Part shown: positions 3,989 through 42,100 of the stretch, piece by piece
How positions within the stretch are numbered: position 1 is the first letter of the stretch
Layout of the letters: each line of letters begins with the position of its first letter
Assembly: GCA_000934665.2 (NCBI GenBank)
Contig: JYFJ02000726.1
Span: 62,001-112,545, forward strand
Length of the DNA stretch: 50,545 nt
Direction: 5' to 3'
Source of the DNA: Catajapyx aquilonaris
Lineage: Eukaryota
The notes under the pieces: generated by a model
Seen by the model: the letters and a program-made list of their open reading frames with translations, nothing else
Told to the model about the DNA's origin: nothing
Databases searched by the model: none
Position numbers and translations under genes: made by a program

Positions 3989-5863
<1,875 letters not shown>

Positions 5864-6304
5864 AACATATAAAAGCGCAACACCATTATTGTTAGCATTC
5901 ATATACATACATTCCATCCATTGGATTACCTGGCAGCCGTCCAATTTTTATAATAATTATATTTTGTGTATTAAGCATTGTTTTTGATCCGTCCATATTT
6001 TTGGTCTTCCAGATCTCGCTTTTTGATCATCTTGTTGACTCAATAAATAGCACTATTTTTGTACGACACACAAAATCAGCATTATTATTATTATTATTCC
6101 AGGTGTCACAGCCTCATTATGACAAAACCGCAGACGATTCATCTACATTTTCATAAATTAATTCCGTCATATATGATTTGCCCTCTTTTTAATTTTTAAA
6201 CTTTTTTTAACCTGACACATTTTTTTTCAATTATTTTCCTGCAAATGAAGCATATTGTGCGTTACCAATTAATTGCCAATTTTTTTTGTGGCAAATTACG
6301 AAAA

Positions 6305-6355
6305 TCCCGCCAAAAAGTATCGATATTTTCAGTTACGATAATCAAAGATGGCAGC
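6305..6355 (+). promoter_or_regulatory. Host-type housekeeping promoter of the Harbinger-derived gene (E2F + DRE + YY1-like)
   Basis: tcccgccaaaa (E2F-like, 6305-6315), perfect DRE TATCGATA (6318-6325) and aagatggc (about 6345). A non-coding exon follows, with donor ag|gtaag at 6446 and acceptor tag| at 6543. Confidence 0.55.
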
Positions 6356-6545
6356 CTCCAGTTGAACCCAAATGTTTGACAATTAATTGAATTCGAGCTC
6401 AAATTAACAGATTTAACAAGTAGCTGCGTGCAATTACAGCTTCAGGTAAGATCAATGTGCTTGTTCTGTAATTTAGCATATGTAGCAACAATATTGGTAT
6501 GTATAATTATCAAAAAAAATGAGCTGAAGTCTTACTCACATAGAA

Positions 6546-8107
6546 ATGGACGAAGACCACCTGAATCTTCTGCAGAACATGGCAGCTAATGGAATGGATC
6601 ACAGTGCACTGCATCATTTACCTGAAGCCATCATGAGCATCCAGCATGACTCTTCAGACCGCAGGAGGAAGGTACTGGGCGCACTGATCATTCTTTTGGC
6701 AAACATGCAGAGACAGCATCAGCAAATGATGATGATGATGGCACACCAAAGAGTGGCACTGATCACCGCTCTTTTACTGAGAAGAAGGCGCCGGAGAATG
6801 ATGGCAGACAGCAGGAAGTCCAACCGCGATGTGGAGCGTCAAAGGTGGCTACGGGGTATCAGAAGGAAAAGAATGTAAGTTTCAGATGCCATTAAATAGT
6901 ACGCCGTACCGTTGAAAATGTTTGTGTTGCAGCTCATCGAGTAAGGATCTGGACGTGCGGGTGCCCAAATTCCGTATGTCTTTTCTTAAAGACAGATCGT
7001 TCGACCTGCCTTCTGTCCTGGGCGTCCCTCATCATGTCTTCTGGTTACTTATCCAGATGTGCGCCACAAACCCAAAGCCAAAGTCGCACCACCTGTCTCA
7101 AGACGTGGAGCTTGCATTGTTCCTATACTGGCTCTACACTGGTGCACCTCTGTGGCACGTGGGGTATGCATTTGGAGTTGGTTGTGCCTTAGCCGATGCG
7201 GTTGTCATGAGGACGCTGCGACATTTGTACCTTCTGGTGGACAAACATGTCCACTTTCCATCTGAGCAGCAAGCAAGACGCATTGGGGCTGGATTTGCAT
7301 CGTCTGCTGGAAGCCGTGCATTTGGGACAAGTGCTGGTGCGCTTGTCGTCACAGAGGTGAAGTGGTGTAGAAAAAACTCTGATTATCTATTGTGACATTA
7401 ATCTAATTCTTCTGGTGCAGGTTGGGTACCGCACGGGCTCCGACGTAATGATGCAGCAATTGCTGGTTGACCACCGCAGCCGAATACTGAATTCTTTTAC
7501 CACCCTGACCCGTAGCAATTGCAAGATGATCCTGAGGAGTAGTCCTTTGTACAAGAGATGTGCGTACTCACCATCAGGGAAGGTGATTTTAGCCTCGAGG
7601 AATTTCCCATGCTTATCATCGCCCCTGCACATTTTGCCACCTTACTCAGAAACCTCACTAGCTCTTACCTCCCCTGAAGCCATCATGTTTAACATACATC
7701 ACTCGCTGGCAATGGCACCAGCTAAACGAGCACTTAGGTTGCTAAGGACTCGGTGGCCTGCTGTGTACACTAGGTGGGTAACATTTAATTAGACATGTAC
7801 AGAATGTGACATGATTTATTTTACTGGCAGGCCATTGGGAGTGTCCCCGCATATAGTTCCGATGGTTTTGTCCGTTTGTACTCTTCTCCACAACGTGTGC
7901 CTTCAGATGGGATGGGAGGAGCCACATGGTGGTGACCCGTCAGATGAAGAGGATGAGGACGGGGCAGTCGATCTGAAGAAGGGGGAGAAGGACGGGGAAG
8001 AGCTCCGCAGGAAAGTGGCTGACCAGTTGTTGAGCAGGGAGGACGGTGATTACAACAGTGCACTTCAGGAAATGGGACATGATCACGATTATGCCATGTC
8101 CCCATGA
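6546..8107 (+). CDS. PIF/Harbinger transposase-derived (HARBI1/ALP1-like) protein, about 460 aa, catalytically dead; exons 6546-6874, 6933-7356, 7421-7773, 7831-8107
   Basis: Spliced CDS is 1383 nt, open, with phase-compatible GT-AG introns. It has the HTH-like LFLYWLYTGAPLWHVGYAFGV, FAxxAGSRAF, ILRSSPLY, FNIHHS..RTRW and VCTLLHNVCL blocks of Harbinger transposases. Confidence 0.85.
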
Positions 8108-8126
8108 CCAATTAAACGGTGTTCCC

Positions 8127-9448
8127 TTAATGCTCGTTTATGATCGCTTGTGTTAACCTGTTGATGGCACCCAAGAGTGCATCGTTGTTCTTGATGAAGC
8201 TCTGCTGCATCTGAACCATCAGCCTGTTACTCTCTTCCAGGTGACGCAACAATGCTGCCTCCACCTCAGGGATGTTTGGCTGCTTTGCGCTACGTGGCCG
8301 CTTTGGAGGTGCCACTGTCTCACTATCTTCCACCTCACTCTCTGCCTCATCCGGGTCCATCAACCTCTGTGTGCTTCTCAAAGACCGCTTACGGAGTTGC
8401 CTGGAATCACATTATCTGTAGTACAGCATTGAACAGCGATTAATGCGACACTGACATTGTCGGCTCAGGAATGTCTGCCGCATCATCAACGTTCCCTTTC
8501 TGATCCTTCTCTCCCATTATCTGCTCCATCAGATCATAAAACATCCATGTGTTTTGGCTAAAAGACTGCCGATTGGACGTCTTGATATCCTGCAACACCG
8601 CAATTTTATCAGCAACATGCTCAAAACGATTCAACCAAACTTGCCTTGTAATGTTGGCACAAGTTGGACCACTTCTTCCGGCACTGGTCCGCCATAATCA
8701 GGCCATCAATCCCAAGCTCTTGCATAATCCCCCTTTAAAAAAGGAGATTCTCATTAAGTCGCTGCGAGTACACTACAAGTACTCGTACTCACTCCCATGC
8801 AGTCTTGGCCGAATTCCGCTTCCCCGTGAAATCGAAGCGACGTTCATACCGCAGCTGGATGAAGCGCCTGGTCAGTTCATCAGTCCCTTCGTACATTAAC
8901 GAGTTATTAATTAACTAGCAAGAAGCCTGTTTCACAGCAACAATCGCTGTTGATATCATAGCAACCTGTTGCCATGGACATTGTATAAAAAGGGTTGCCA
9001 TGGACAAACTTTCTCTTACATATGTAACAAAGTTTGTCCATGGGAACTGGTTATTAATCTTGTTATATCCTTTTTATACTTGAGAAAGTTTGTCCATGAC
9101 AACCCTTTTTTATACTATGTCCATGGCAACTGGTTGCTATGATATATGAGTGTAAAATATCATGGTAACCAGTTCCCATGGCGTCCCCGCTGTCATGGAC
9201 AAACAAGCAAACAAACTTTCTCTTATATGCAGGTAAGATATAACTGGTTGCCATGTTGACCCCACTGCCATGGACGCACAAACAAGCAAACAAACTTTAC
9301 CTTATATATGCTGTTTAGCCTATGTACCATATGTAAGATTAATTAATTACAGCCGAGTTCTACCCTGATAATTAGCATAATTGTGTGACCTACATTTAAA
9401 CTGCAATCCGAGTATATCTTCTGGAGGGCAAGGGTCATTTGAGGTCAT
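8127..9448 (-). CDS. Myb/SANT (trihelix-like) DNA-binding protein of Harbinger ORF1 type, 214 aa; exons 9448-9394, 8886-8793, 8732-8645, 8589-8456, 8400-8127
   Basis: Spliced CDS is 645 nt: MTSNDPCPPEDILGLQFKWTDELTRRFIQLRYERRFDFTGKRNSAKTAWEGIMQELGIDGLIMADQCRKKWSNLCQHYKDIK...TWMFYDLMEQIMG, then a C-terminal coiled coil. The three Trp of the SANT/trihelix are present. One intron is GC-AG. The ORF track shows only fragments of this gene. Confidence 0.85.
8953..9145. repeat. Inverted repeat (foldback/MITE-like) in intron 1 of the Myb/SANT gene; partial copies continue to about 9305
   Basis: atatcatagcaacctgttgccatggacattgtataaaaagggttgccatggacaaactttctc is mirrored by gagaaagtttgtccatgacaaccc...gttgctatgatat. 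Confidence 0.8.
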
Positions 9449-9901
9449 ATCCTTTCGTACCTCCCGCCCCTGGGCAGAAGAAAATATTCCAAGCAGTCTA
9501 AAGAGGTCACACAAGTGACCTTGCGAGGCACCCAGACGACCTTTAGCCTCGCTTGCCCTGCAGATGCGTCCGTTCGAGTCCTAGGCTGCAACCAGAGTAG
9601 TACGAGGATGTAGGGGTTCAGTGGGGTCAAGAGGTCACCGCAAATCTACGGGGCAAAGTCGACACAGAAGGTCACTCCTTGCAAGACCGCACCCCAAAAT
9701 GGAATAGCGGTTTACATGCGCCAGGAGCTTCAAAGTGCGCGTGCGTCAGTGGTAATGCAAGTCCGCTATTGGTCGGAAGATGTGTCTGGTGACGGATGGT
9801 TTCAGATGTAAACAGTTGCCTACGGAGACAGCATTTGGAACGTTCTACACTTGGTTCTGAACAGTTCTGAACAGGTTCTAAACGTCGTGTCTGCTGAAGT
9901 C

Positions 9902-10398
9902 ATGGCCGCCTCCTCCGGCTGCCCTCCACTGGCCGACATAGCCTTCGAGGTAATATCACAATATTGTAGAGTCCAAGCACATTACGCTGTATGGCTCCGG
10001 TATGGCTGTTATTAGTAGACTACAATGTTGCATCACATTTCAGGCTACGTTGCTGTCCTGGCTGAAAGGTAATGAGTCTGCCAAGCAATACCTGGAAAGC
10101 ACGCTGCAGTGGAAGTTGCTGCTTCGGATGTACGACTACCTGCAGGGTGGGGCTACACAGGCACAGATTGACGCCTGCAGGGTACGTTGTTATTGTACGC
10201 TCAACTGCTGAGTGATTTACCCCTTATTATTGGGCCACACCGAGTAAGAAACGGATTGTTCCGCAGGCGGAGACGACTGTTGCAATCGCGCAGTATGTGA
10301 GGGACCACCCAAGAGCCTCGCCGCAGCAGATGGAGACGGAGATTCAACGTCAGGTGGCTGCGTTCTCCGCCCGCCTGCAGAACCTCAATCTTGTCTAA
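9902..10398 (+). CDS. Uncharacterised 105-aa helical protein; exons 9902-9949, 10044-10181, 10267-10398
   Basis: gtcATGG start, two phase-0 GT-AG introns, open frame MAASSGCPPLADIAFE-ATLLSWLKG...IDACR-AETTVAIAQYVRDHPRAS...LNLV*, and AATAAA at about 10525. Family not recognised. Confidence 0.7.
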
Positions 10399-11014
10399 AC
10401 GGTATCAAACGACGTGATCATACCTGTGCATTTATGCCCGCATTGTTTGAATCGCCATCATTAAGAGGAGCAACCCATCATTACGAGGAGCAACGTTTCC
10501 TATATATTTGTGCATTATTAATGTAATAAAATTCCTGTCCTGTAATGAATCCAATGTTGATCATTGTTACGTGAGTTGTGCAATCCTCGCTCAGCTGAAA
10601 ACGAATCGATGATCTGCGACGTCATCGTCACACAACAATGTGAGTAAACAGTGTCAACGAAAATGAACATTGTTTTACTCCCTATTGTAGCATGAGAACA
10701 AAATGATGGCGTCGGATCGTCGTTTCCTTCCCCGCATCATTCGATCGGTCGGGATATAATTTATTTCCACTGGTTTGTGCCGCCTGATATTCATTTGTGG
10801 CAGTGAATCACACACACATTAACTAGCTCATGTATTTTTAAAATTCATTTAATTCGTATTACTCAAATCGCTGTACAGAATCGACCGTATTTCAGTTTAC
10901 AGTATCGAACTCCCAATGTGACGTCATCCAGTGTTGCCAGATGAGTGAGGTTGCCAGGTTGTGCACAAAAACAAAAACAAAAAAACATTCTTTTGTTTTC
11001 GAACATTCGGAAAG

Positions 11015-11566
11015 ATGGCGGCTAATGGAAGTAAGTTGATTCCTTCGTCTCTTACAGCCTCGAAAACTCTGTCTCCTGTTGAACATTTGGAAACTTAAAA
11101 ACTGATCAACAGGGTCGCAATTAACCGTGGGTGTAATTAGTAGGAGTAATGAAATGACGTCCATTATTAGTACTGCATTTTTCAGACCCTTCTGGTACGC
11201 CCGCAGATCCGGCGAGTGGTTCGAACAACGGGCTGGCCTCCCTCTTATCCGATGCTGCTCAGGTAATGGAATGGCTAGAAGCGTACAGTACCGTTGGCAC
11301 ATCATAAATTGTGTGCTACTCCACAGAGGGCCATCAAGACCGACAAGGACCGTGACACTGCCCCTGGGCAGAAGGCGAAGAACCGTGTGGACCTGCACTC
11401 CCTTCCGACCCGGCAGTACTTGGACCAGACGGTCGTACCCATCCTGCTGATGGCCATGTCCGCACTGGCCAAGGAACGGCCGCCTGAGCCTATTGACTAC
11501 CTGGCCGCTTACTTGCTGAAGAACAAGGCGCAGTACGACTCATCCAACGGTGCTGGCAGGCCCTGA
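11015..11566 (+). CDS. DPY30: Dpy-30 homolog (COMPASS/SET1 subunit); exons 11015-11030, 11186-11262, 11327-11566
   Basis: [48 protein letters not shown] is the Dpy-30 motif. YY1-like aagATGGCGGC at the start. AATAAA at about 11600. Confidence 0.95.
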
Positions 11567-28808: not shown

Positions 28809-30985
28809 TCAATCGTCAGTTACGTCTGGACCGGCCATATTCCTCTGATGCTTATGCTCTAGTTCCATTCTGTACCTTTGAAGTTCCTGCCAAGGGAAAG
28901 AGAGTTTGTGTCATCACTGTTGAAATGTCATTCGTCATTTGACGGTGATGAACAGCCATACCTCGTCTTTCATTGTTCTTAATTTGTCAACTTGGGGTTC
29001 TCGATATGTCAAGTCCTTTGCAGGGTCTTCAGGCAGAGCACCGTATGATGGGTTAGCAACTTCCTTTTCAGTGCCCTTAGGAAACACCCCATAAAAAACT
29101 TGCTTCCATTGCTCTAGGGCTCCTTGGCCTGAAGGACCTCCGATCAGTTCAAATGAATCAGCCCCAGCCGGAATCAGCAGTGGCTTGTTGTAATCTTGTG
29201 ACAAAACCTTCCTGAAATAAACACTGCTCGTATAGTATCGCTCAGAATAAAAATTGCATTGGTCATATCAGATCTACCGAGCAACACCGAGCTCTAAGCA
29301 ATGGCACTGTTTCAGTATACATACCCAGGCGGACCATGAAAGGCATGGTGCGTTAGAATTTCTTTTGCTCGCTTCACCAATCCCATGTCCTTCGCACTGT
29401 AGAACTGCAGAGTAGCTCCACTTGCATGTGAATAGTAGCGCAACACTCTGCAAACAACTTTTTTGACCTCCGGTTCCAGTTCTTGAAACATATCATACTT
29501 TCCTCCCAGTATGACCAGCGGTATCGGAAGTGGGTCAACATCCTTGCGATCCTGTACCGAAAACAAAACAGCCAAATCATTAGATAAATTCTACAAGGTT
29601 CGAAATACGAGTTGTGTGCAGCAACATGTGAGACTTTGAGGGGCACGGTGATTGCAGTTATCAAGTACACGAAATTGAGCATGACTCGTTACTTTATTTC
29701 TTGTACAGTAGAATCCCGATTATCCAACCTCGGGTTATCCGACCATCCTGCTCCGGCAATAAATCTACGTTTTCTCATGAAATACAGGTACTGTAAAGAT
29801 GCGTTTACACGTGAGCAATTTGACGAGCGAAATCTTCCAGTAGGTTATGTAACCCAAGTAACCAATATTGTTTGAGACGAAATTTCGCTCAGCTTCACTC
29901 ATCAATTTGCTCACATGTAAACACACCTTAATGGTCTACACATTTGTTTTTTCTTAGTTAAATGGTAAATACAGTACAGTAGAGTGTGTGTAAATACGGT
30001 ACGTCACTATTTCTTAGAAAACCATAATATTGTAAGCTATTTCCTGTTTTCAGGAGGTGTATACTCATGCAGGTCACTCACAATCGACAAAGTCGATTGA
30101 CGTCAAAATGACGTCGCCAATGATGACCAGGGCAGGGCGAGGAGAACTGGCGACATCATTTTGACGTCAAACGACTTTGTCGATTGCAAGTGACCTGGAT
30201 GAGTATATGCCTCCATATGTCTTTTCTTGTCTTTCATTAAAGGTTTTTACTCTGATTATCATCGTAACTTTTCTGTTATCTGGTCCCACGAGTGACGGAT
30301 AATCGGGGTTCTACTGTATCTTTCTCATTAATTTGATAACTGAACCTGCTTTACCGGATGGTCCTTCCCAATCCTCTGCTGGGTCTGCTCCTTCAAAATA
30401 TGCGACAGAGACTTTCTCTCCTCCTTATCACGCACGGATTCAATGCTCTTTGTCACCGATGTCCTCAGAGCAGTGACCAGCTTGTGCAGGGTTGTCCACA
30501 CGGCCGTGGGTTTGGACAGATCCACCATGAGGACGGCTGTCAGGTTCTTGAGCCTCTCTGGCGAGGTTGGTGTCGAAAGGAGTGAGTCGCTATGGAGCGT
30601 GCCGCCACCCAGCTCCCAAATGTGGCACACCTCCTTAGCCAGTATGCTCTTGTTCAGCTTGCGGCCAAAGGTGTAGTCCAGCGCCAAGGTTGGTTTGGCA
30701 GCCTCATCCCGCTCCAGGAAGCGGTGGATCAGAGTCGTCTTGCCCTGCGTAAAATGGTGTGAACCGCAAGTGCCGAGCAAACCGTATGAACTTACCACTC
30801 CTGAGCTTCCAAGGAAAAGAAGAGTGGTCTCAGGTGTCCAGCGGTATCCTCCCAAAGGCCCCTCTTGCTGCCTGGCCTGTTCCAAGGCCATGTCGCACAA
30901 GGAAGGACCATTGCTGCTGGAAAATTGCAAGTGTCAAATCAGCCCAATAAACCACCAATAAAATACACCAGTACCTCTGCGGCAT
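28809..30985 (-). CDS. DYNC2LI1: Cytoplasmic dynein 2 light intermediate chain 1 (IFT dynein)
   Basis: P-loop-like [53 protein letters not shown] and DYNKPLLIPAGADSF. Six exons with canonical joins. ATG at 30985, TGA at 28811-28809. Confidence 0.93.
29797..29928. mobile_element. Tourist-type MITE (family shared with 39753-39876)
   Basis: TIRs agatgcgtttacacgtgagcaa / ttgctcacatgtaaacacacct with a TAA TSD. Confidence 0.75.
30053..30214. mobile_element. Palindromic MITE-like element
   Basis: ~67-bp arms ggaggtgtatactcatgcaggtcact...gtcgcca / tggcgac...agtgacctggatgagtatatgcctcc. Confidence 0.75.
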
Positions 30986-31110: not shown

Positions 31111-32094
31111 TGTGTCATCAGTGTTGCCAGGTGGATTTGTATGTACAGTACTGTACTTGTACTTGTACTTATTAATTATGTATTGTACTAGTCAATACAG
31201 CAATTACAGTTTGTGACTAACATTAATTAGATACATTTACAACATTTATTTCTGATTGATTTAGTATGAATTCGGAAGGTGTCCGCTACTTGGCAGCACT
31301 TCCCACTAACTTAAAGTGCTTGTAAATTTACACGACAGATGGACTCAAAATGTGAAAGTGAACAAATGTGTTTGCAAAAAAAATTATGCAAAAATTATGC
31401 AAATTTTTTTGCATTGTTCTTGCGAATCTAGGTCAATGCACCGGCAAATGCACCGTGAAAGAAATTAAAAGTGTCTGCTTTTTTTCGCCAATAACTACAT
31501 TCGAATAAGTAGTTGTGCAAATAATTTCCAAACAAATTTTTAGCGAATATTGTATTTAAAAACTGCAACGATATACAGTACGTTATAAAAGTACATTTTA
31601 TCTTTGAAATTTCGGTGCCTATTAATGTGCAAAAAAAATAAATCGCGCGCCAATCCGCCATTTTTTCGCGACACACCTACATTATTGCGAATGCGCGAAC
31701 TCCGCGCGAACTTATTTATCCCCATTATTCCAAACAATTCACGCAAACAAACAAAAAACAATTTATTTAATCAATAATTATTTTGCATAGTTACCAATAA
31801 CCTTGCATCTGTTACGCCATGAAATAATTGTTGTATTGCCAACTCTGTCAAAATTCCAAGGACTCGCCAAAAAAAAAGAGTGACAGTTGACCTTGCCCAA
31901 CATTAGACTGATTATTCGAGCTTCGTCGAGGCATTGTTGCAGTACAAGTGTACAACCAATGTGGTATGACCACATGACAAGACCTGCAAGTGCACAACAA
32001 TAAGTGGGAGATGAGCCGTTGTTGAACAGCTGGTAAATTCCGCAACTGTTGCATGTCGTTGAGTCCATAATAAACCGCAGTTACTTGCAGAGCG

Positions 32095-33729
32095 ATGCCA
32101 CGACTGAAGCGTCCATCGTCGCTGTACTACCAGTGCCTGCACAGCATTGTCCTGCGCGTGATCGACAAGTGCCGAAGGAAACCTGGCGAGTGCAAGACGT
32201 CGCTGAGTGAGCTGCGTCGACACCGTTTGGCAGAGTACATCGAGAGCATTCCCAACTATGCGGCCAACGAGTACACGGCCGAGGTGCTCCGTCAGCTGGC
32301 GGACATCGATCCGTCTGAAGTGTGGGTCCACTGGCTGCTGCATCCGGGAACCACTCAGCTGCAGGCCACCCAGAGCTGGAAGATTCTGGACGCCCTTCAG
32401 AAACACTGGGTCGCAATCGTTACGCATTTGCCCGCAATGACGCGTCTGCAGCAGCTGAACCTGGATTTCTGCGGGGCCGGAGTTGCGTCTAAAGATGATG
32501 CAGGGGCTTTCCGTAAGTTTCACGAGAGCCTGGGTCGCTTGCATTGGTTAACGTCTGTGGAACTATCGCATGTGTGTACATCGGAGATACTGCATACCAT
32601 AGCGAACGGATGCCCCCTGTTGAAGAAAGTTGTAGCGGAGGACTGTGCATTGAAATCGCAGGACATACGGGTGTTGCTTCAATGCCGGCACCTCTTACGT
32701 GTGCAAATCGAAAGCTACGACGATCCTGTAACGCCTGAGGATATTGCATACCTTGTTAAAGGCCTTCCGAAGTTGCAGTTCATACTAATCGACGGTGTGA
32801 ATGCACTGATTGACATACTAGCGTCCGACACACCAGATGGTACGACCTACCCAATTCGGACGCTGGGAGTCATCAACGAGACATTAGATTCCGACCACCT
32901 GGATCAAATGTGCCGGATTTTCCCGCATCTAGACCGCCTGCAGTATTTGAGCCCGACGCTTGATGTGTTGTGTACGCTCCGTCGCTTTCCGAAACTGAAA
33001 GAACTGAACATGAAAATCACTGCCAGATCGCACCTTCAAGATCTAGTCGCTTCCGCCACGCTGCAGCCACTTGAAATATTAGGGCTGTTCTTTCCCGAGG
33101 GCAACTCTCCATCGATGTCGACGCTAGGGTACCTCCCGAACCTGACATACTTGGACTTGTTCGCTGCAAGGGACATCGACATTGCTTCAGTCGCCAACTC
33201 CTGCCCATCTCTGAAGGATCTGGTGCTCCGGGATTGTTCGTACATTCCCGTCCGCTCAACCGGATCGCTCCCAAAGCTAAACCAGCTTATGATAACAGGT
33301 GGTTACAACCGTGAGGTGCTATACTACCTTCTGTCCCGGTGTCCTGAAGTCGAGACGCTCATATTGGGCGAGAGTGATTTGGCCCAGGAGACATTCCCAA
33401 TATCGGACCGGTTGTGGCGAAAGGCAGTCCGACACAACCCGATGAATTCTCTCAAAATATTGCAGGTCTGCAGCGGCCGTCTTACACGTGATTTTATATC
33501 AATGGTCCTGAGATCACATCCCTGCCTGACGCGCCTCATTCTGGTCGGAGATCAGTGGAATTCGCAGCTTCCGGAGTCGGCCTTTCCTCAGCTTAATGAA
33601 TCGCTACGGAAATTCGACATGACTGTAACCGTGACAGGTGCTGGGACACACTTTTATTGCTACTCCGACACATCAGTTGAAGCCAACAGCGACTGGGAAG
33701 CACTTGAAGTCATTGGCTCGATATCCTAA
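32095..33729 (+). CDS. Intronless RNI-like leucine-rich-repeat protein with N-terminal BC-box, 544 aa
   Basis: Long open frame after acceptor ttgcag (32090). Repeated CPxLKxLxL / LPxLxxLxL units, N-terminal SLYYQCLHSI, and AATAAA at about 33927 and 33951. Confidence 0.8.
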   Translation: MPRLKRPSSLYYQCLHSIVLRVIDKCRRKPGECKTSLSELRRHRLAEYIESIPNYAANEYTAEVLRQLADIDPSEVWVHWLLHPGTTQLQATQSWKILDALQKHWVAIVTHLPAMTRLQQLNLDFCGAGVASKDDAGAFRKFHESLGRLHWLTSVELSHVCTSEILHTIANGCPLLKKVVAEDCALKSQDIRVLLQCRHLLRVQIESYDDPVTPEDIAYLVKGLPKLQFILIDGVNALIDILASDTPDGTTYPIRTLGVINETLDSDHLDQMCRIFPHLDRLQYLSPTLDVLCTLRRFPKLKELNMKITARSHLQDLVASATLQPLEILGLFFPEGNSPSMSTLGYLPNLTYLDLFAARDIDIASVANSCPSLKDLVLRDCSYIPVRSTGSLPKLNQLMITGGYNREVLYYLLSRCPEVETLILGESDLAQETFPISDRLWRKAVRHNPMNSLKILQVCSGRLTRDFISMVLRSHPCLTRLILVGDQWNSQLPESAFPQLNESLRKFDMTVTVTGAGTHFYCYSDTSVEANSDWEALEVIGSIS

Positions 33730-34089: not shown

Positions 34090-35382
34090 TCACGTGTCAT
34101 CCCAATGGTTAACCATGTCTTCTTCCAACAAGGGGCTCCAGTTGGGAGACTGGCACTGCGTCGCTGGCCATCCAAAGTCGTCCACACACATCCACCTCTG
34201 GGTGGCCGTCTGCAGATCCAGTCCGCTGCTGGCGGCATCCTCCTCAATCTTGGGGTACCTCCATGTGTTAGGCGCAAATCGGATCCCAGTGCTGTTCTCC
34301 ATCACCGTTCGGCTGGTCACCGCCACGTACATGTCGCAGTTATGTGAAGAATGGATCCGTATCTGTAAATAGGTCGGATGTTACATGTGGTTCTCCCAGC
34401 GCACTGTGCCTCCTACAATATCCAACACCTACTCCTTCATTATGAGCAGGAAGTACAGCAGCCAGACCATCATTTAAATAAGTGGTCATCACCGCAAATA
34501 GATTACAAGGCAAGGCGCCGGCAAGTTTCCTTACACAATTAAGTCAATCTTTGTAATCTGCCGCACTGCACGCTCGTATTTGGCCAAAATTTAACAACTA
34601 AAATCGCATGACTTCTGTTAACGTACCTGGTGTGCAGCAATGGACATGGTGCAACCGCTACACGCCTCCACCATGATGGATGAGGCGACTGGCCCGCACA
34701 GAATGTGGCAATCGACCAGGCTCACGGCTTGAACGGCAGCGGGAACACCTTCCATCACCACCGTGCATCCGACCAGCTCGTGCAGCAGTACGTCTTGGCC
34801 CATTAGCTCCTTCCTGGACAGCCTGACCGTCTCCCCCTTACGGGCCCTTACCATCACCGACGCTTCAAGTGAATTATCCGGCTTCTCTCCATCAGGAAGC
34901 TGCTCTAACACCGCTGAATCCTTGCTTATCTGTTTCTGTTCCTCTGCCTGTATCTCTCTAAGTGGCTTTGACAATGCTCGTGAACGGAATCCAAATCGCT
35001 TCTTAGGTCGTACCCTGGCTTCGGTCGAGTCTCGAATCCGTTGCAGTTGTGCTAAGGTCTCCTGTGAGCGTCGTAAGTCATATGCGGGCAGGAAATGGGA
35101 AGCATCCAACAACGCCTTCTGCATTCGCTGTAAAATCGTGCAAGCCTCGTCCACCTCCACTCCGGACTGTGCCTTCTCAAGTCGTGACTCAACATCCTTG
35201 CGTAGGTCATTGAAACGGGCGTAAAACTGTGCTGGTGTCTCCTCCAGCTGGTCCATGGTTGGCATCTTCTGCTTGGTCAGGAGCCTGTGGCGTTCCTCCA
35301 GGCGCCCTATCACATCTCGGTGGCGGTCAGTGGGGGTGAAGGGTCCACCACCCACAATGCCATTCTCCTCCATCACTTTCAT
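34090..35382 (-). CDS. TBCC: Tubulin-specific chaperone C; exons 35382-34627 and 34362-34090
   Basis: DASHFLPAYDLRRSQ, VRPKKRFGFR, C-CAP/cofactor C domain LCGPVASSIMVEACSGC..AHQ-IRIH..RFAP..VDDFGW..SPNW. Confidence 0.93.
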
Positions 35383-35966
35383 GGCTTAAGTTTTCCCTCA
35401 GCCACCCACACCGTCAAGTCTTGATCACGGGCTTTGTAGTTGCTGTCTGCAAATTCACCAACCTTGTAGAAACCTGCGGAGAATATGAGGAGTTAATCAC
35501 AAGAGCCTTGGTTATTATCATTAGACGATTAATTAGTAGGGTACGGCATTATAAAACACAAATTTCTCACAGTCACATGCTTTCCTTTCACATTAAAGAT
35601 ACTCTTCCAAGCACATGTCTTGCCAGACTGTTATTGCTAAAATTAGCCGGACAGTCACATCACATTTTTTGAACAGCTGCCAGTTTTCCCGTGGCAGTTT
35701 ACTTGCGGTGATTCAACTATTTGAATTCTACACCTTTCCAACTAGAAACTTCAATATTATCGGATCATTACAAGGTTCCAAATGAAAGGTTTTAACTGAC
35801 CGTCCAACACCCAGTTGTAGTTGTTGTGCATGTACAACCTAAAGTCTCGAGATCTGTTCATACGATGCCAGAGACAAAAGGTGGCAAGGAAGGCACCAGC
35901 CTCAATCGCCAGGATGCCTTTGATTGAAGAGCGAAGTAAACGACGCTTCGGCTCCTTATGAAGCAT
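35379..35966 (-). CDS. CEBPZOS: CEBPZOS-like small membrane/mitochondrial protein, 86 aa; exons 35966-35801 and 35473-35379
   Basis: IKGILAIEAGAFLATFCLWHRMNRSRDFRLYMHNNYNWVLDG-FYKVGE...RDQDLTVW matches recalled CEBPZOS (FKGVLVAE..KMHTSQDFR..ILEVYYK..RELDQKTW). Phase-1 GT-AG intron. Its TGA overlaps the TBCC ATG. Confidence 0.85.
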
Positions 35967-39166: not shown

Positions 39167-42100
39167 TCAAGCAACAACCAATTTTTTACCATTGCTGCAA
39201 TGCAAGGAACCGCCGGTAGTGGAGGATGCGGCCCCACCTTTGCGAAACTGTTCAGATGGACCCCAAACACGTACGGTCCCATCATCTGACACGGAGGCCA
39301 GCATCTGGGGAAATGTGGGGTTCCACGTCACACAGTTCACGGTGCGGCTGTGGCCCGCAAGTGTGGCGATTGGGTGCTCCCGTCTCACGTGCCAGATGTA
39401 CACCTTGTTGTCTGCAGGCAAGAGGGTTTCAGGATTCACTACTACGAGGCAGAGGCGTTGTACGTGCCAAATTCCCATTACAGCTACTCATGCAACTTCC
39501 ACCGTAACATGCACACTAGGTGCAACTACATGGAAAATATTCTTAGGCCGGATTACACTGGCTCCCGGAAAATTTGACTGGCTGAAGAAGAGCCCGGTTA
39601 GTTTGTTATTCATTGTTGTTCACAATTCGGTCAACAATGGATAACAAACCATCTCGGCTCTTCTTCGGCCAGACAAATTTTCCGGGAGCCGGTGCAATCC
39701 GGCCTTAGCCTGGAATAAGTCCAGAGCCATAGAGTCAATAGTGCAGTCTTTAAGCCGCGTTTACACACGAGCCATTAGTTCAGCGATGAATCAAATCGAT
39801 TGTTAGCATGATTGTTACTTTCACCCCAAACAACTGGATTCATCGCTCGGCAAATTGCTCACATGTAAAGGCGGCTTTCCATCTTCCCAGATGTCAAACA
39901 CAAAACACATGCTAATACTACAGATCTGCCCTTGTTTGGATACTGGCAGGAATAATGACAGAATAAGCACCTTCGCTGCCACTGGCGACAAAGTCCTGGT
40001 TCACACCTCCAAAGCAGCTATGAATGGTGTAGAAGCCCTGGGTAACGCCCTGGAACTTGCGCACCAGGCAGCGGTCACGTAAGTCCCACAGGTGGACCCC
40101 TTGAGTGGCAACGTTCAAGAGGGCTAGGCGGTCAGCATCATTCACAGTAAATGACATTATGGCATGGCCCTCCTGCAATCTGAAGTCCACGGACAAAAAA
40201 AAGCTATTGTTATTCACATGTAAAAGTAATACCAACAAAATTATCAGGACAAGTCAGTACTACGGCTGCATAGCAAGAATTCAGGTGTGAAATTAATAAT
40301 TGAAGTTCCATGCATGCTCCAATTGTCTCGAAAGAGCCCTGTCCTTGTGTGCTCTCAGAAGTCTAAGTACTTATTTTACTGCAATTTAAACGAAATGGTA
40401 CTGCTTCCTTCCAATATTGTAACTCACATATTGGCATCTGTAAGCTCCTCAAAGTTGTATGAGCGTATCCGGTGGTGAGTATCTGCTGCAAGAACGGTCT
40501 TCCCATCAGCACGGTACCACAGGCACTGCACACGTACGCCTTCCCAAGAATCAAGCACGTTACCCTCCAGGTCCTGAAACAAACATTTTTGAAGTTCAAA
40601 TCTGCATTTATTTGAAATGTACGCTTGGTGACTAGGGAAGTTACTTACACATTGGTAAAACTGTCCCCTGGTACCTCCTGCCACAAATTTCTTCCCATCC
40701 CTGTGCCATGCACAGCAGGTCAGGGAGTCCTCTGGGGATGGGGAGATCTTGTTCCTTAGTTCCCCAGTCTGTGCATTCCACAGCCACAGTTCTGGGCAGT
40801 CATCAGGGCCGCACGCTATCAGGTGGCTCGAGTCAGGGCTCCAGGCAAGGTAAGCCACGCCGTAGTTGTGACCCTCCAAAGTGCGACGATGGTTGCAGGT
40901 CAAGGTCTCCTGCAGGGAAAGAAACAATAACATCTAAATCTCTCCACATTTCAACATAAGATTTTCTGCAGCATGATGTACCATAATTGACTGCATATAA
41001 GACACACCCCCATTTCAGCAGATCATATTTAGGAGGAAAAGGCATTTAGTGTAGTACATACGTATACAAGATGCAGGGCGATTTTTTGAGCAATTTTTGG
41101 GGAAAATTGTGTTTTATATGCCATCAAATGCAGTACCTGGACAAAATAAGAGTTTGACATTTTCAATCATGACGACAACATATCGATGTTGACACCTGAA
41201 AAATGCAGAACTTACAGGATCGACATCCCATATGACAATGGTGGTGTCTTTCGATCCAGTTGCAAGCTTCATCCCATCCGGTGAGAAGCGGCAGAACCAC
41301 ACTTCATCGCAATGTTCTTTCAGGACTTGCACTGTTTCACTGGGGAACTGCTCTCTGAAATGATGCAAGCGGGTGTAATGAATGAATTCTTTGGCGCAAA
41401 AACCAATCTTAACTCTTTACCTGTTGCAGACGTGGTCCACCAGAAGAGAGACATCAAGCCCACCGTCAGATTTGGTATTGTGATATGGACACCTCTTCTT
41501 TTGTAGCTCAACAGCCTGACACAACAATGAGTGTAACCTGCAACAGTTAAGGAAAAGGTTAAACATCAAATCTCTCATACCAGTGTGAATATCTTAACTC
41601 TGTCTTCAACAGTTCTTCGCAACTATGCAGCATCTACTCATTTCTAATCACGGGACAATTCATCTGAGAAATACCAGCTTTATTGATCCACTGGTGCCTC
41701 GTACTTATTTCGTTTCTGGAGGTTGTTTGGAAGAGCAAATGTTAAAACTATAATTAGGAGACATGAACACTTCATACAGGTGAAGCTTCATGTGCAAATT
41801 GCATTGATCAGTTATTTTTCAAAATTTCAACCACCCTAAATCTGTTTTAGAGGCCATCAATTTTTACACAAATCATTGCTGCATTGAATGACCGGGTCTG
41901 TCATCTTAAGAGTATCTATATTATTTTGAATTGGAACACACACAGAGAACCTTCTGGGTGGCAACATGATGGAAGGGGGTAGGAATTCTTGAAGCTTCTC
42001 CATCAGATGGACCCTGGAAGCAGATCCCTTTCCCTCCCATCCTGTCAGCCGACAGAGCTCTTCTTGTCCACTACACATCATGAAGCTGCAGAAAGAGAGC

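What the first reader, a model, noticed from the sequence alone, without database searches (positions are those of the whole stretch)
6305..9448. Candidate co-domesticated Harbinger module: catalytically dead transposase plus convergent Myb/SANT partner
Seen: two intact, intron-containing genes (about 460 aa on +, 214 aa on -) lie tail-to-tail between the host genes CCDC85 and DPY30. They have no frameshifts or premature stops, and I found no flanking TIR/TAA pair. Established: autonomous PIF/Harbinger elements encode exactly this pair, and domesticated pairs act in chromatin regulation (HARBI1/NAIF1 in vertebrates, ALP1/ALP2 and HDP1/HDP2 in Arabidopsis, DPLG/DPM genes in Drosophila). Inference: this is a lineage-specific domestication that kept both genes in their ancestral arrangement, with the SANT protein targeting DNA and the dead transposase serving as a scaffold.
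Basis: partly seen in the sequence, partly recalled or inferred. Interest (0 to 1): 0.85.

Follow-up and report, generated by a model that had tools for sequence, protein, structure and literature searches.

The report
Domesticated dead transposase with Myb partner
Two neighbouring, spliced and expressed animal genes descend from the two genes of one Harbinger jumping element; the cutting enzyme has lost its active site, which is a known way for hosts to gain regulators.

Summary
A 460-aa gene on + (four coding exons, 6546-8107) and a 199-aa gene on - (four coding exons, 8896-8127) lie tail to tail, with stop codons 19 nt apart. Intron-less contigs of an independent public run bridge six of their seven introns exactly where predicted; the seventh has only a 9-letter overhang.

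The + protein is a full-length PIF/Harbinger transposase homologue. All three catalytic residues are replaced (V248, S310, K353), and about 12 residues are missing beside the first. The - protein is Myb/SANT-like, on exon-level evidence only.

I found no TIRs, no second copy in the window and no near-identical copy in the source DNA run. No protein among 1.84 billion representatives exceeds about 40% identity.

Co-domestication of one Harbinger insertion is the best reading (0.7). Conservation in relatives, dN/dS and genome-wide copy number could not be tested, because no genome is held and the host is an unidentified metazoan.

Adjacent co-domesticated pairs are already described in insects, so this is a new member of a known kind. 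One lead: two tick proteins share the deletion and the triad loss.

The parts
6358..6445 (+). 5'UTR exon of the transposase-derived gene. Its left edge is only the end of a contig, not a mapped start. It holds a 4-codon uORF (ATG at 6372).
   Evidence: the first 88 letters of X5 contig record 10 are joined 6445->6544 (GT..AG). Sequence read.
6546..6874 (+). Coding exon 1 (residues 1-109 plus 2 nt): N-terminal helical and Arg-rich region.
   Evidence: translation and splice sites. (joint 6874/6933). (this piece was used in the complex test).
6933..7356 (+). Coding exon 2: helix-turn-helix region of Harbinger transposases. It ends at the first catalytic position, which is now Val248 (GALVVTE in place of GAIDGCH).
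7421..7773 (+). Coding exon 3: core of the DDE_Tnp_4 domain. The second Asp is now Ser310 (ASRNFP for GDGGYP) and the Glu is now Lys353 (AKRALR for VERAFG). About 12 residues are missing after the first catalytic position.
   Evidence: PF13359, 28.7 bits, above the cut-off of 24.8, E 1.1e-6.. (joints).
7831..8107 (+). Coding exon 4, with the LHNVCL motif, an acidic tail, the C-terminal DHDY motif shared with relatives, and the stop at 8105-8107. An ATTAAA lies at 8111-8116.
8108..8126 (.). The 19 nt between the two stop codons. The two mRNAs overlap here.
   Evidence: one 1999-nt X5 contig carries the + gene spliced in the + sense and exons 4-2 of the - gene spliced in the - sense. That requires overlapping 3' ends (inference from the assembly).
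8127..8400 (-). Myb-like gene, coding exon 4 (90 aa): acidic stretch, PPKRPRSAK (NLS-like, by eye), C-terminal helix, and the stop at 8129-8127.
   Evidence: (Atlas leads to trihelix/Myb-like clusters, weak)..
8456..8589 (-). Myb-like gene, coding exon 3: third helix of the Myb/SANT-like domain (NTWMFYDLM).
   Evidence: joints 8400/8456 and 8589/8645. (the 10 best named Atlas clusters with a family all share one family or clan, Myb/SANT-like; score 0.80; a lead only).
8645..8732 (-). Myb-like gene, coding exon 2 (29 aa, QCRKKWSNL), followed by a GC-AG intron.
   Evidence: PF13837 Myb_DNA-bind_4, E 0.0035, 18.2 bits, below the cut-off of 27..
8793..8896 (-). Myb-like gene, coding exon 1 (ATG at 8896, with an in-frame stop upstream in the genomic sequence).
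   Evidence: (a 9-letter overhang at 8732 matches 8793 onward).
8950..9310 (.). Palindromic, dispersed repeat just upstream of the Myb-like ATG, with 7 copies of a TTGCCATGGACAAAC-like motif. Whether it belongs to the pair (promoter, or relic of a transposon end) or is a later insertion is open.
   Evidence: arms 8953-8994 / 9104-9145, 93%. (9 matches in the window, 7 of them here; 0 of 100 shuffles reach 9). (hairpin -91.4 kcal/mol, z -11.2). (31-33-nt pieces also lie on other DNA contigs).

Best explanation
One PIF/Harbinger transposon insertion has been turned into two host genes.

The + gene encodes a full-length transposase-like protein. It keeps the Harbinger fold motifs and the C-terminal DHDY motif, but none of the three catalytic acids, so it cannot cut DNA.

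The - gene encodes the element's Myb/SANT-like partner, with an NLS-like basic patch and a C-terminal helix.

Both genes are single-copy at this locus, have host-like short introns, are spliced and transcribed, and converge so closely that their mRNA 3' ends overlap.

Inferred mechanism, by analogy with Harbinger3_DR, HARBI1/NAIF1 and ALP1/ALP2: the Myb-like protein binds DNA and carries or recruits the dead transposase into the nucleus. There the pair acts as a non-catalytic DNA-bound adaptor in transcription or chromatin regulation. Contact may run between the transposase N-terminus and the Myb-like C-terminal helix.

Shown: ancestry of the + gene, loss of the triad, intact frames, splicing, and absence of TIRs and of near-identical copies. 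Inferred: selection, binding, nuclear import and chromatin role.
For: - Family. Exon 3 matches DDE_Tnp_4 above Pfam's cut-off. An exhaustive search of 1.84 billion representatives found 68 relatives (E <= 1e-3), the best at 33-39% identity. Of 28 looked up, 17 carry an organism name: 13 teleost, 3 tick and 1 mayfly, labelled HARBI1, ALP1-like or uncharacterised.
- Collinearity. The spliced protein aligns collinearly with 11 relatives from the HTH to the C-terminal DHDY motif. It keeps 35 of 64 columns that are >=90% conserved among them. It has V, S and K at the three catalytic positions and a ~12-residue gap after the first.
- Partner. Exon 2 of the - gene hits Myb_DNA-bind_4 (E 0.0035, sub-threshold, 29 aa). 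Exon 3 gives only Myb/SANT-like named clusters in the Atlas (the 10 best with a family share one family or clan, score 0.80, a lead).
- Expression and splicing. Intron-less X5 contigs bridge 6 of the 7 introns of the pair at canonical sites. The seventh is supported by a 9-letter overhang only. Four neighbour-gene introns are bridged as well. X5 comes from another sample and study than the DNA runs.
- Not a mobile copy. There are no TIRs and no second copy in 50.5 kb. One unbranched DNA contig of 6345 nt spans 5000-10222 at word depth 31.7, within the 28.9-36.5 of four of the six other X1 contigs listed there (30.9, 36.5, 28.9, 31.2, 33.4 and 29.4 for records 2-7; record 8 at the 10193 repeat reads 89.9). 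X1 may be the run the window was assembled from.
- Against neutral decay. Take 659 codons with 5.0% of non-synonymous changes being nonsense. The joint likelihood of 3 of 3 catalytic codons replaced with no nonsense codon anywhere is at most 3.3e-5 (my rough model, indels ignored).
- Host-like gene structure. Introns are 55-98 nt and GC3 is 0.56 and 0.63, against 0.54-0.73 for six host coding stretches.
- Binding. ESMFold2 complex test of transposase residues 1-109 with the Myb-like C-terminal 90 aa: 'weak support', score 0.54 (runs 0.54, 0.54, 0.53), best of 3 controls 0.04. The runs agree in >=71% of contacts and partner pLDDT is >=63. The mark was reached by 51 of 78 solved complexes and 2 of 108 mismatched pairs. 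At 0.60 or under, only 5 of those 78 reached it, as did all 4 mismatches that passed (of 180). On eukaryotes it was reached by 39 of 65 solved pairs and 2 of 126 unrelated pairs.
- Literature (passages read). Harbinger Myb-like proteins bind the transposase and import it, and HARBI1/NAIF1 interact (PMC9392472). ALP1 has DGA for DDE, and one triad mutation cripples Ping (PMC4671723). Adjacent co-domesticated pairs without TIRs are known in insects (PMC9710019).
Against: - No orthologue, and so no synteny or dN/dS. Nothing above about 40% identity was found in 1.84 billion representatives, and nothing in two metagenome scans.
- No genome is held. Copies below 95% identity elsewhere in the genome are therefore not excluded.
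- Expression rests on contigs of one run whose type is not on record. That it is RNA is my inference from its intron-less contigs.
- The Myb assignment rests on short exons: one sub-threshold Pfam hit plus Atlas leads.
- The end branch of the protein is 2.7-2.8 changes per site against a median of 0.6. This fits either fast evolution after co-option or relaxed constraint.
- The complex pass is in the weak band and was made on fragments without alignments.
- The neutral-decay figure assumes that the catalytic changes arose in this copy.
Confidence: 0.7

Rival explanations
1. An old, immobile relic of a Harbinger insertion. It is still transcribed from nearby host promoters, and both frames have stayed open without selection.
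For: No conservation data could be obtained. The terminal branch is very long (2.7-2.8 against a median of 0.6). The helix-turn-helix recognition helix and many active-site neighbours are changed.
Against: Both frames are intact over 659 codons, and seven introns have working splice sites, six bridged by transcripts and one supported by an overhang only. 35 of 64 highly conserved fold columns are kept while 3 of 3 catalytic ones are lost. The joint neutral likelihood is <= 3.3e-5 in a rough model.
Confidence: 0.12
2. A member of a low-copy, diverged and still mobilisable Harbinger family. Its ends are too short or too degenerate to be seen here, and it is moved in trans by an active relative.
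For: Copy number below 95% identity is untested (one search was run at min_likeness 95). A dispersed palindromic repeat lies at one end, 8950-9310.
Against: No inverted match longer than 9 nt exists between the flanks. The repeat lies on one side only. The locus is packed between host transcripts: the left neighbour's contig ends at 6071 and the pair's first exon begins at about 6358. The DNA contig across the locus does not branch.
Confidence: 0.05
3. Only one of the two genes is a working host gene, for example the Myb-like DNA binder. The other is carried along because its transcript overlaps and is not yet disabled.
For: Myb-like genes of Harbingers have often been domesticated alone, as with the MSANTD1-4 genes (PMC9392472, passages read). 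The transposase-like protein shows the more extreme divergence.
Against: The 460-codon frame is the longer target and is intact. It keeps the family's C-terminal DHDY and LHNVCL motifs. The weak complex pass links the two proteins (0.54 against a best control of 0.04, a band in which passes are more often wrong than right unless the pairing was likely beforehand).
Confidence: 0.1

Closest known systems
Adjacent co-domesticated PIF/Harbinger pairs of insects: DPLG7/DPM7 (Drosophila), APLG1/APM1 and APLG2/APM2 (Anopheles), LPLG2/LPM2 (Lepidoptera). Source: PMC9710019, passages read.
   Same: Both genes of one insertion are kept side by side. Frames are intact, each gene is single-copy, and there are no TIRs or TSDs. 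RNA support exists, and the pairs are tens to hundreds of bp apart and not always in the same orientation.
   Different: Those pairs are shown to be conserved, syntenic and under purifying selection across species, which could not be tested here. The host here is an unidentified, probably non-insect metazoan. The partner here matches Myb_DNA-bind_4 rather than being described as MADF. The 3' ends overlap convergently, whereas APLG1/APM1 is reported as a dicistronic transcript.
HARBI1 / NAIF1 of vertebrates.
   Same: A Harbinger transposase-derived protein plus a Myb-like-derived protein. They interact, and the Myb-like partner gives nuclear import (PMC9392472, passages citing Sinzelle 2008, which I could not read).
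   Different: From recall, not checked here: HARBI1 keeps its DDE triad, and the two genes are unlinked. The window protein is at most 39% identical to any hit labelled HARBI1. Those labels sit on teleost transposon-like copies. No orthology test with true HARBI1 was possible.
ALP1/ALP2 and HDP1/HDP2 of Arabidopsis.
   Same: A catalytically dead Harbinger transposase (ALP1: DGA for DDE) that works with a Myb-like partner inside chromatin complexes (PMC4671723 and PMC9392472, passages read). This is the closest functional analogy.
   Different: These are plant lineages of independent origin, and to my knowledge (recalled) the genes are not adjacent. All three triad residues are lost here, against two in ALP1.
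Active two-gene Harbinger transposons of animals. The nearest sequence relatives are teleost, tick and mayfly copies.
   Same: The same domain order (N-terminal basic helix, HTH, DDE_Tnp_4, acidic tail, DHDY) and the same kind of partner gene.
   Different: Here there are no TIRs or TSD, no further copy was seen, the triad is lost, there is a ~12-residue deletion next to the first Asp, and the branch is 4-5 times longer than the median.
Tick proteins P0052 (Ixodes hexagonus) and P0058 (Rhipicephalus microplus), unnamed in their records.
   Same: They share the same gap after the first catalytic Asp, loss of the second Asp and the Glu, the PCL(S/T)xP...PP(F/Y) motif and an N-terminal helical extension. 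A tree holding the three together is not rejected and scores 1.67 lnL higher than the free tree (p-AU 0.645).
   Different: They are only 26-27% identical to the window protein, no closer than transposon copies at 27-32%. They keep the first Asp. Long-branch attraction could explain the tree. Their loci and any partner gene could not be inspected.

Membership tests
PIF/Harbinger transposase (Pfam DDE_Tnp_4, PF13359) | Sequence match to the DDE_Tnp_4 domain above the curated threshold. | tested here: met
   exon 3 alone scores 28.7 bits against a cut-off of 24.8, E 1.1e-6; 68 relatives at E <= 1e-3.
PIF/Harbinger transposase (Pfam DDE_Tnp_4, PF13359) | Collinear architecture: N-terminal region, HTH, then the RNase-H-like core. 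| tested here: met
   full-length MAFFT alignments with 11 and with 6 relatives; 35 of 64 highly conserved columns are kept.
PIF/Harbinger transposase (Pfam DDE_Tnp_4, PF13359) | Intact catalytic D-D-E triad. | tested here: not met
   V248, S310 and K353 at the three positions, with no acidic residue adjacent at the second and third. It is therefore a derivative and not an active transposase.
Autonomous Harbinger transposon | Terminal inverted repeats and a 3-bp TWA target-site duplication around the two genes. | tested here: not met
   none of 18 inverted pairs brackets the pair; the best flank-to-flank inverted match is 9 nt, E = 2.
Autonomous Harbinger transposon | Several related copies in the genome. 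| tested here: inconclusive
   no other copy in the 50.5-kb window; an unbranched DNA contig at single-copy word depth, but only matches of >=95% were laid; no genome is held.
Harbinger Myb/SANT/trihelix-like partner (Myb_DNA-bind_4, PF13837) | Match to the Myb/SANT-like domain. | tested here: inconclusive
   The domain is split over three short exons, and spliced sequence could not be handed to the library tools; exon 2 (29 aa) gives E 0.0035 and 18.2 bits, below the cut-off of 27; exons 1 and 3 give nothing; for exon 3, the 10 best named Atlas clusters with a family all share one family or clan (Myb/SANT-like), at 0.80; for exon 4, weak trihelix/Myb-like leads.
Harbinger Myb/SANT/trihelix-like partner (Myb_DNA-bind_4, PF13837) | Regularly spaced bulky aromatic residues of the three helices. 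| tested here: met
   Read from the spliced translation: Y2, W34 (TAWE), W55 (KKWSNL) and W78/F80/Y81 (NTWMFYDL). The pattern was judged by eye against a recalled consensus.
Co-domesticated Harbinger gene pair (criteria of PMC9710019) | Intact coding regions, no TIR/TSD, and adjacency of the two genes. | tested here: met
   The stop codons are 19 nt apart.
Co-domesticated Harbinger gene pair (criteria of PMC9710019) | Transcription with a conserved or valid exon-intron structure. | tested here: met
   contigs of X5, from an independent sample and study, bridge six of the seven introns. The seventh is supported by a 9-letter overhang.
Co-domesticated Harbinger gene pair (criteria of PMC9710019) | Single-copy orthologues at the syntenic site in several species, with dN/dS well below 1. 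| not testable with these tools
   no genome is held; no close relative was found. The tick proteins are only a lead.
Co-domesticated Harbinger gene pair (criteria of PMC9710019) | Physical interaction of the two proteins. | tested here: inconclusive
   'weak support', score 0.54 against a best control of 0.04. At 0.60 or under, the mark was reached by 5 of 78 solved complexes and by all 4 passing mismatches of 180. The test used fragments only, without alignments.
HARBI1 orthologue | Orthology to vertebrate HARBI1, with a conserved triad. | tested here: not met
   The triad is absent. The best identity to any protein labelled HARBI1 is 33-39%.

The most novel reading that the evidence does not exclude
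The dead transposase may be old rather than a private invention of this lineage. On this reading it belongs to one catalytically dead Harbinger-derived gene family shared with ticks. The shared characters are the same ~12-residue deletion beside the first catalytic Asp, loss of the second Asp and the Glu, the PP(F/Y) motif and an N-terminal helix. Here the family would still be kept with its Myb-like partner as a convergent, 3'-overlapping gene pair. The palindromic TTGCCATGGACAAAC repeats next to the partner's start might then be a relic of the transposon's subterminal binding sites, now used for regulation.
Probability: 0.15. Interest if true: 0.7.

Novelty: new member of a known kind. Interest (0 to 1): 0.45.

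Why it matters
Harbinger transposons have repeatedly given hosts a ready-made two-protein module, a DNA binder plus a partner. Examples are HARBI1/NAIF1, ALP1/ALP2, HDP1/HDP2 and the insect PLG/PM pairs. What the animal modules do is largely unknown.

This locus would add a clean animal case outside insects and vertebrates. Both halves are still together, the enzyme is unambiguously dead at all three catalytic residues, and the two mRNAs overlap tail to tail. That makes it a convenient system for two questions. One is whether the non-catalytic transposase acts as an adaptor for the Myb-like protein. The other is whether convergent overlap couples the expression of the two genes.

If the tick proteins prove to be kin, the domestication would be ancient and widespread in a large animal group. 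As it stands, the locus is a well-supported but ordinary example of a known process, and it lacks the comparative evidence that would make it firm.

Tried and rejected
- Whole-genome search. No genome is held for this window, so copy number rests on DNA contigs at >=95% likeness only.
- The search for homologous proteins (3 of 3 used). Transposase exon 2, longer proteins: none. CCDC85 exon: 2 unnamed hits at 40-42%. TBCC-like ORF: none. The host taxon therefore stayed unresolved.
- Host placement by PDB comparison. These searches show a metazoan. By eye from the printed alignments, the WDR26 exon (E 1.7e-60) and the DPY30 ORF (E 5.5e-23) are roughly 80% identical to the PDB chains titled WD repeat-containing protein 26 and Protein dpy-30 homolog, whose species the tool does not give. 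The TBCC ORF (8.2e-29) and the DYNC2LI1 exon (1.6e-25) are more distant.
- Metagenome scans with transposase exons 2 and 3: no relative.
- Earlier scan notes. None for this genome or for look-alikes. A word search gave one unrelated algal Harbinger-XPG element, which I did not use.
- Rfam on the whole window: 0 matches.
- PDB by sequence with transposase exon 3: 0 matches at E <= 1.
- Sequencing runs. No RNA holder is listed. X5's type is not on record. X5 contigs give no cover over 6104-6287, 8864-9415 and 9600-9783, so the 5' end and promoter of the Myb-like gene are unknown. Whether a 154-nt X5 contig at 9433-9586 is its 5'UTR exon was not settled.
- TIR hypothesis. Pair I12 (6454-6470 / 9967-9983, 17 nt, 82%) was rejected because its right arm lies inside the next gene's first intron.
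- The palindromic repeat as a Harbinger/Tourist MITE. I saw no TAA/TTA duplication at the palindrome's edges. The TTAATTAA strings at 8907 and 9340 are themselves palindromic. This is left open.
- Gene orientation in ancestral Harbingers. I found no statement in PMC9179366, PMC9710019 or PMC13668399, nor through searches. Sinzelle 2008 and the coelacanth paper are not held.
- Placement in a tree. The window protein joins another long branch (P0046) with weak support, or stays unplaced when P0046 is left out. The careful search did not finish, so quick trees were used.
- Pfam on Myb-like exons 1, 3 and 4, and on transposase exons 1, 2 and 4: nothing meaningful.
- Spliced proteins could not be given to Pfam, structure prediction or the database searches. 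The whole-protein Pfam score, fold and fold search were therefore not obtained.


Full report
WHAT IS THERE

Reading 5800-10000 and listing frames gave two multi-exon genes.

The + gene has coding exons 6546-6874, 6933-7356, 7421-7773 and 7831-8107. Each is bounded by GT..AG, and the gene translates to 460 aa without a stop.

The - gene has coding exons 8896-8793, 8732-8645, 8589-8456 and 8400-8127, giving 199 aa. My first guess for the third donor (8450) was wrong and was corrected by transcript evidence.

The stop codons (8105-8107 and 8129-8127) are 19 nt apart.

TRANSCRIPT AND COPY EVIDENCE

A search for public runs found four DNA runs of one sample, which may be the source of the window. 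It also found a fifth run, X5, from another sample and study, whose type is not on record. No holder is listed as RNA.

Laying X5 and X1 on 5000-10500 showed the following:
- X5 contigs skip 6445/6544 (a 5'UTR intron), 6874/6933, 7356/7421 and 7773/7831 with GT..AG.
- X5 contigs skip 8400/8456 with CT..AC.
- X5 contigs skip 8589/8645. Within its 3-nt ambiguity this joint can be read canonically only as a GC-AG intron (GCAAGT...CAG).
- A 9-letter overhang at 8732 matches exon 1 at 8793.
- Four introns of the two neighbouring genes are skipped as well.

From this I infer that X5 is cDNA-derived.

A single 1999-nt contig holds the + mRNA spliced in the + sense, followed by exons 4-2 of the - gene spliced in the - sense. 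No single RNA could be spliced this way. It therefore reflects two convergent mRNAs whose 3' ends overlap enough for the assembler to join them (inference).

In the DNA run, one unbranched 6345-nt contig spans 5000-10222 with no differences, at word depth 31.7. The other X1 contigs listed there read 28.9-36.5, apart from one at 89.9 on the 10193 repeat. Other DNA contigs touch the locus only in 31-33-nt pieces of the repeat at 8948-9310 and of a repeat near 10193. So no copy at >=95% identity is evident. Lower-identity copies were not tested, and no genome is held.

WHAT THE + PROTEIN IS

Exon 3 alone passes Pfam's threshold for DDE_Tnp_4 (28.7 against 24.8 bits).

An exhaustive HMMER search of 1.84 billion representatives with exon 3 gave 68 hits at E <= 1e-3 and 3 at <= 1e-10. 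The leading hits are 33-39% identical, and none is close.

I looked up 28 of these hits. Of those, 17 carry an organism name: 13 teleost, 3 tick and 1 mayfly. They are auto-named 'putative nuclease HARBI1', 'ALP1-like' or uncharacterised.

I spliced the protein inside scripts and aligned it with 11 relatives. It is collinear from the helix-turn-helix (LALFLYWLYTG...) through the core to LHNVCL and the C-terminal DHDY motif that many relatives end with.

At the three catalytic positions the window protein differs from its relatives:
- Relatives have GAIDGCH; the window has GALVVTE (V248).
- Relatives have GDGGYP; the window has ASRNFP (S310).
- Relatives have VERAFG; the window has AKRALR (K353).

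About 12 residues after the first position are missing.

Of 64 columns that are >=90% conserved among the relatives, 35 are kept. The fold-defining motifs are thus largely retained while the active site is gone.

According to passages of PMC4671723, a single triad mutation drastically reduces transposition of Ping, and ALP1 (DGA) is regarded as inactive. By the same reasoning, this protein is catalytically dead.

WHAT THE - PROTEIN IS

The Myb/SANT-like domain is split over three short exons. Joined sequence could not be handed to the libraries, so the evidence is at exon level:
- Exon 2 (29 aa) hits Myb_DNA-bind_4 at E 0.0035, below threshold.
- Exon 3 (44 aa) has as nearest named Atlas clusters only Myb/SANT-like families. 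The 10 best with a family all share one family or clan, at score 0.80, which is a lead only.
- The C-terminal exon gives weak trihelix/Myb-like leads.

The translation shows the spaced aromatic residues (Y2, W34, W55, W78), a PPKRPRSAK basic patch and a C-terminal helix. These were judged by eye.

The gene's position next to a Harbinger transposase gene is what that family predicts (PMC9710019 and PMC9392472, passages read).

IS IT A TRANSPOSON OR A PAIR OF HOST GENES?

- No TIRs. None of 18 inverted pairs brackets the genes. A direct search of the left flank (5864-6545) against the right flank (8897-9902) gave at best 9 nt, E = 2.
- No other copy exists in the window.
- The locus is tightly packed. 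The left neighbour's transcript contig ends at 6071, and the pair's first exon begins by 6358.
- Gene structure is host-like. Introns are 55-98 nt, and GC3 is 0.56 and 0.63, against 0.54-0.73 for six host coding stretches.
- A rough calculation argues against neutral decay. Take 659 codons, with 5.0% of non-synonymous changes being nonsense. The joint likelihood that all three catalytic codons were replaced while no nonsense codon arose is at most 3.3e-5, before counting indels and splice sites. This assumes the catalytic changes happened in this copy.

These points together favour domestication.

What is missing is the comparative proof. No orthologue turned up in any searchable collection. 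The host is an unidentified metazoan whose proteins are distant from those in the databases.

The protein's terminal branch is 2.7-2.8 changes per site against a median of about 0.6. That fits fast change after co-option but also weaker constraint.

HOW IT PROBABLY WORKS

Established for the family (PMC9392472 passages summarising Sinzelle 2008, which I could not read): the Myb-like protein binds DNA and the transposase, and brings the transposase into the nucleus. HARBI1 and NAIF1 keep that interaction. ALP1/ALP2 and HDP1/HDP2 act in chromatin complexes.

By analogy, I propose that the Myb-like protein targets DNA and recruits the dead transposase-like protein as a non-catalytic adaptor.

I ran one test, a complex prediction of transposase residues 1-109 with the partner's last 90 residues. 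It returned 'weak support':
- The score was 0.54 (runs 0.54, 0.54 and 0.53), and the best of 3 controls was 0.04.
- The runs agree in >=71% of contacts, and partner pLDDT is >=63.
- The mark was reached by 51 of 78 solved complexes and 2 of 108 mismatches.
- At 0.60 or under, only 5 of those 78 reached it, as did all 4 mismatches that passed (of 180).
- On eukaryotes, 39 of 65 solved pairs and 2 of 126 unrelated pairs reached it.

Binding was likely beforehand for this family, so this nudges the odds up, and no more than that.

The overlapping 3' ends could couple the expression of the two genes. That is speculation.

COMPARISON WITH KNOWN CASES AND NOVELTY

Side-by-side co-domestication of both genes of one PIF/Harbinger insertion, without TIRs or TSDs, is described for several pairs:
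- Drosophila DPLG7/DPM7.
- Anopheles APLG1/APM1 (97 bp apart) and APLG2/APM2.
- Lepidoptera LPLG2/LPM2.

Orientation is not always the same in those pairs (PMC9710019, passages read).

The present pair meets the structural criteria used there. It cannot be tested for the evolutionary ones.

It is not HARBI1. The triad is absent, and identity to anything so labelled is <=39%.

I therefore file it as a new member of a known kind. Because the host taxon is unknown, I cannot say whether this very pair is in print. Searches showed such pairs only for insects, vertebrates and plants.

A LEAD ON AGE

Two hits, from Ixodes hexagonus and Rhipicephalus microplus, are 57.6% identical to each other. Both lack the second Asp and the Glu.

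They share several characters with the window protein:
- the same gap after the first catalytic Asp;
- the PCL(S/T)xP...PP(F/Y) motif;
- an N-terminal helical extension.

Against kinship, they are only 26-27% identical to the window protein, no closer than transposon copies.

A quick tree left the window protein unplaced. Forcing the three together gave a slightly better likelihood (+1.67) and p-AU 0.645. This does not reject a clade, but it is open to long-branch attraction.

If real, this would make the domestication old and not lineage-specific.

- The partner is 199 aa, not 214.
- A small spliced 105-aa gene without a Pfam match (9902-10398) lies between the pair and DPY30 (Dpy-30 motif at 11279-11563).

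VERDICT

Domestication is the best explanation (0.7). It is of moderate interest because the kind is known and the comparative evidence is lacking.

Noticed in passing
window 8950-9310: A palindromic, dispersed repeat lies directly upstream of the Myb-like ATG. Its arms are 8953-8994 / 9104-9145 (93%). It holds 7 copies of a TTGCCATGGACAAAC-like motif in both orientations. The DNA hairpin is -91.4 kcal/mol (z -11.2). TTAATTAA strings flank it at about 8907 and 9340. Pieces of 31-33 nt also occur on other genomic contigs. It looks MITE-like, and its relation to the gene pair is unknown.
   Followed up: partly
proteins P0052 and P0058: Two tick proteins (Ixodes hexagonus and Rhipicephalus microplus) are 57.6% identical to each other. 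They are Harbinger transposase homologues lacking the second Asp and the Glu of the triad, which looks like a conserved dead transposase in ticks. They share a deletion and motifs with the window protein.
   Followed up: partly
protein P0027 and its cluster: A mormyrid-fish 'HARBI1/ALP1-like' protein (Brienomyrus, with cluster members in Paramormyrops) also has the second Asp and the Glu replaced (GEEEYP, GVLQAFG). It is possibly another domesticated copy.
   Followed up: no
window 9902-10398 (+): A small three-exon gene (9902-9949, 10044-10181, 10267-10398; 105 aa) is bridged by X5 contigs. Its exons have no Pfam match. It lies between the pair and DPY30.
   Followed up: partly
window 10192-10225: A short stretch inside the small gene's second intron is shared with several other DNA contigs. 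One of these, a 506-nt contig, has word depth 89.9, and the summed depth in the bin 10152-10335 is 301. Loose ends lie on both sides. This is a high-copy repeat boundary.
   Followed up: no
window 6372-6386 (+): A four-codon upstream ORF (ATG TTT GAC AAT TAA) lies in the 5'UTR exon of the transposase-derived gene.
   Followed up: no
window 30331-30933 (-), 34621-35385 (-), 40427-40933 (-), 32074-33729 (+): The window is gene-dense. It holds a DYNC2LI1-like exon, a TBCC-like ORF, a WDR26-like exon (interrupted in the PDB alignment by an in-frame stretch of about 25 codons that looks like a short intron) and a 551-aa single-exon ORF that looks leucine-rich by eye (not scanned). The word-index protein search found no relative for the TBCC-like ORF, although PDB phmmer matches the chain titled Tubulin-specific chaperone C at 8.2e-29.
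   Followed up: partly
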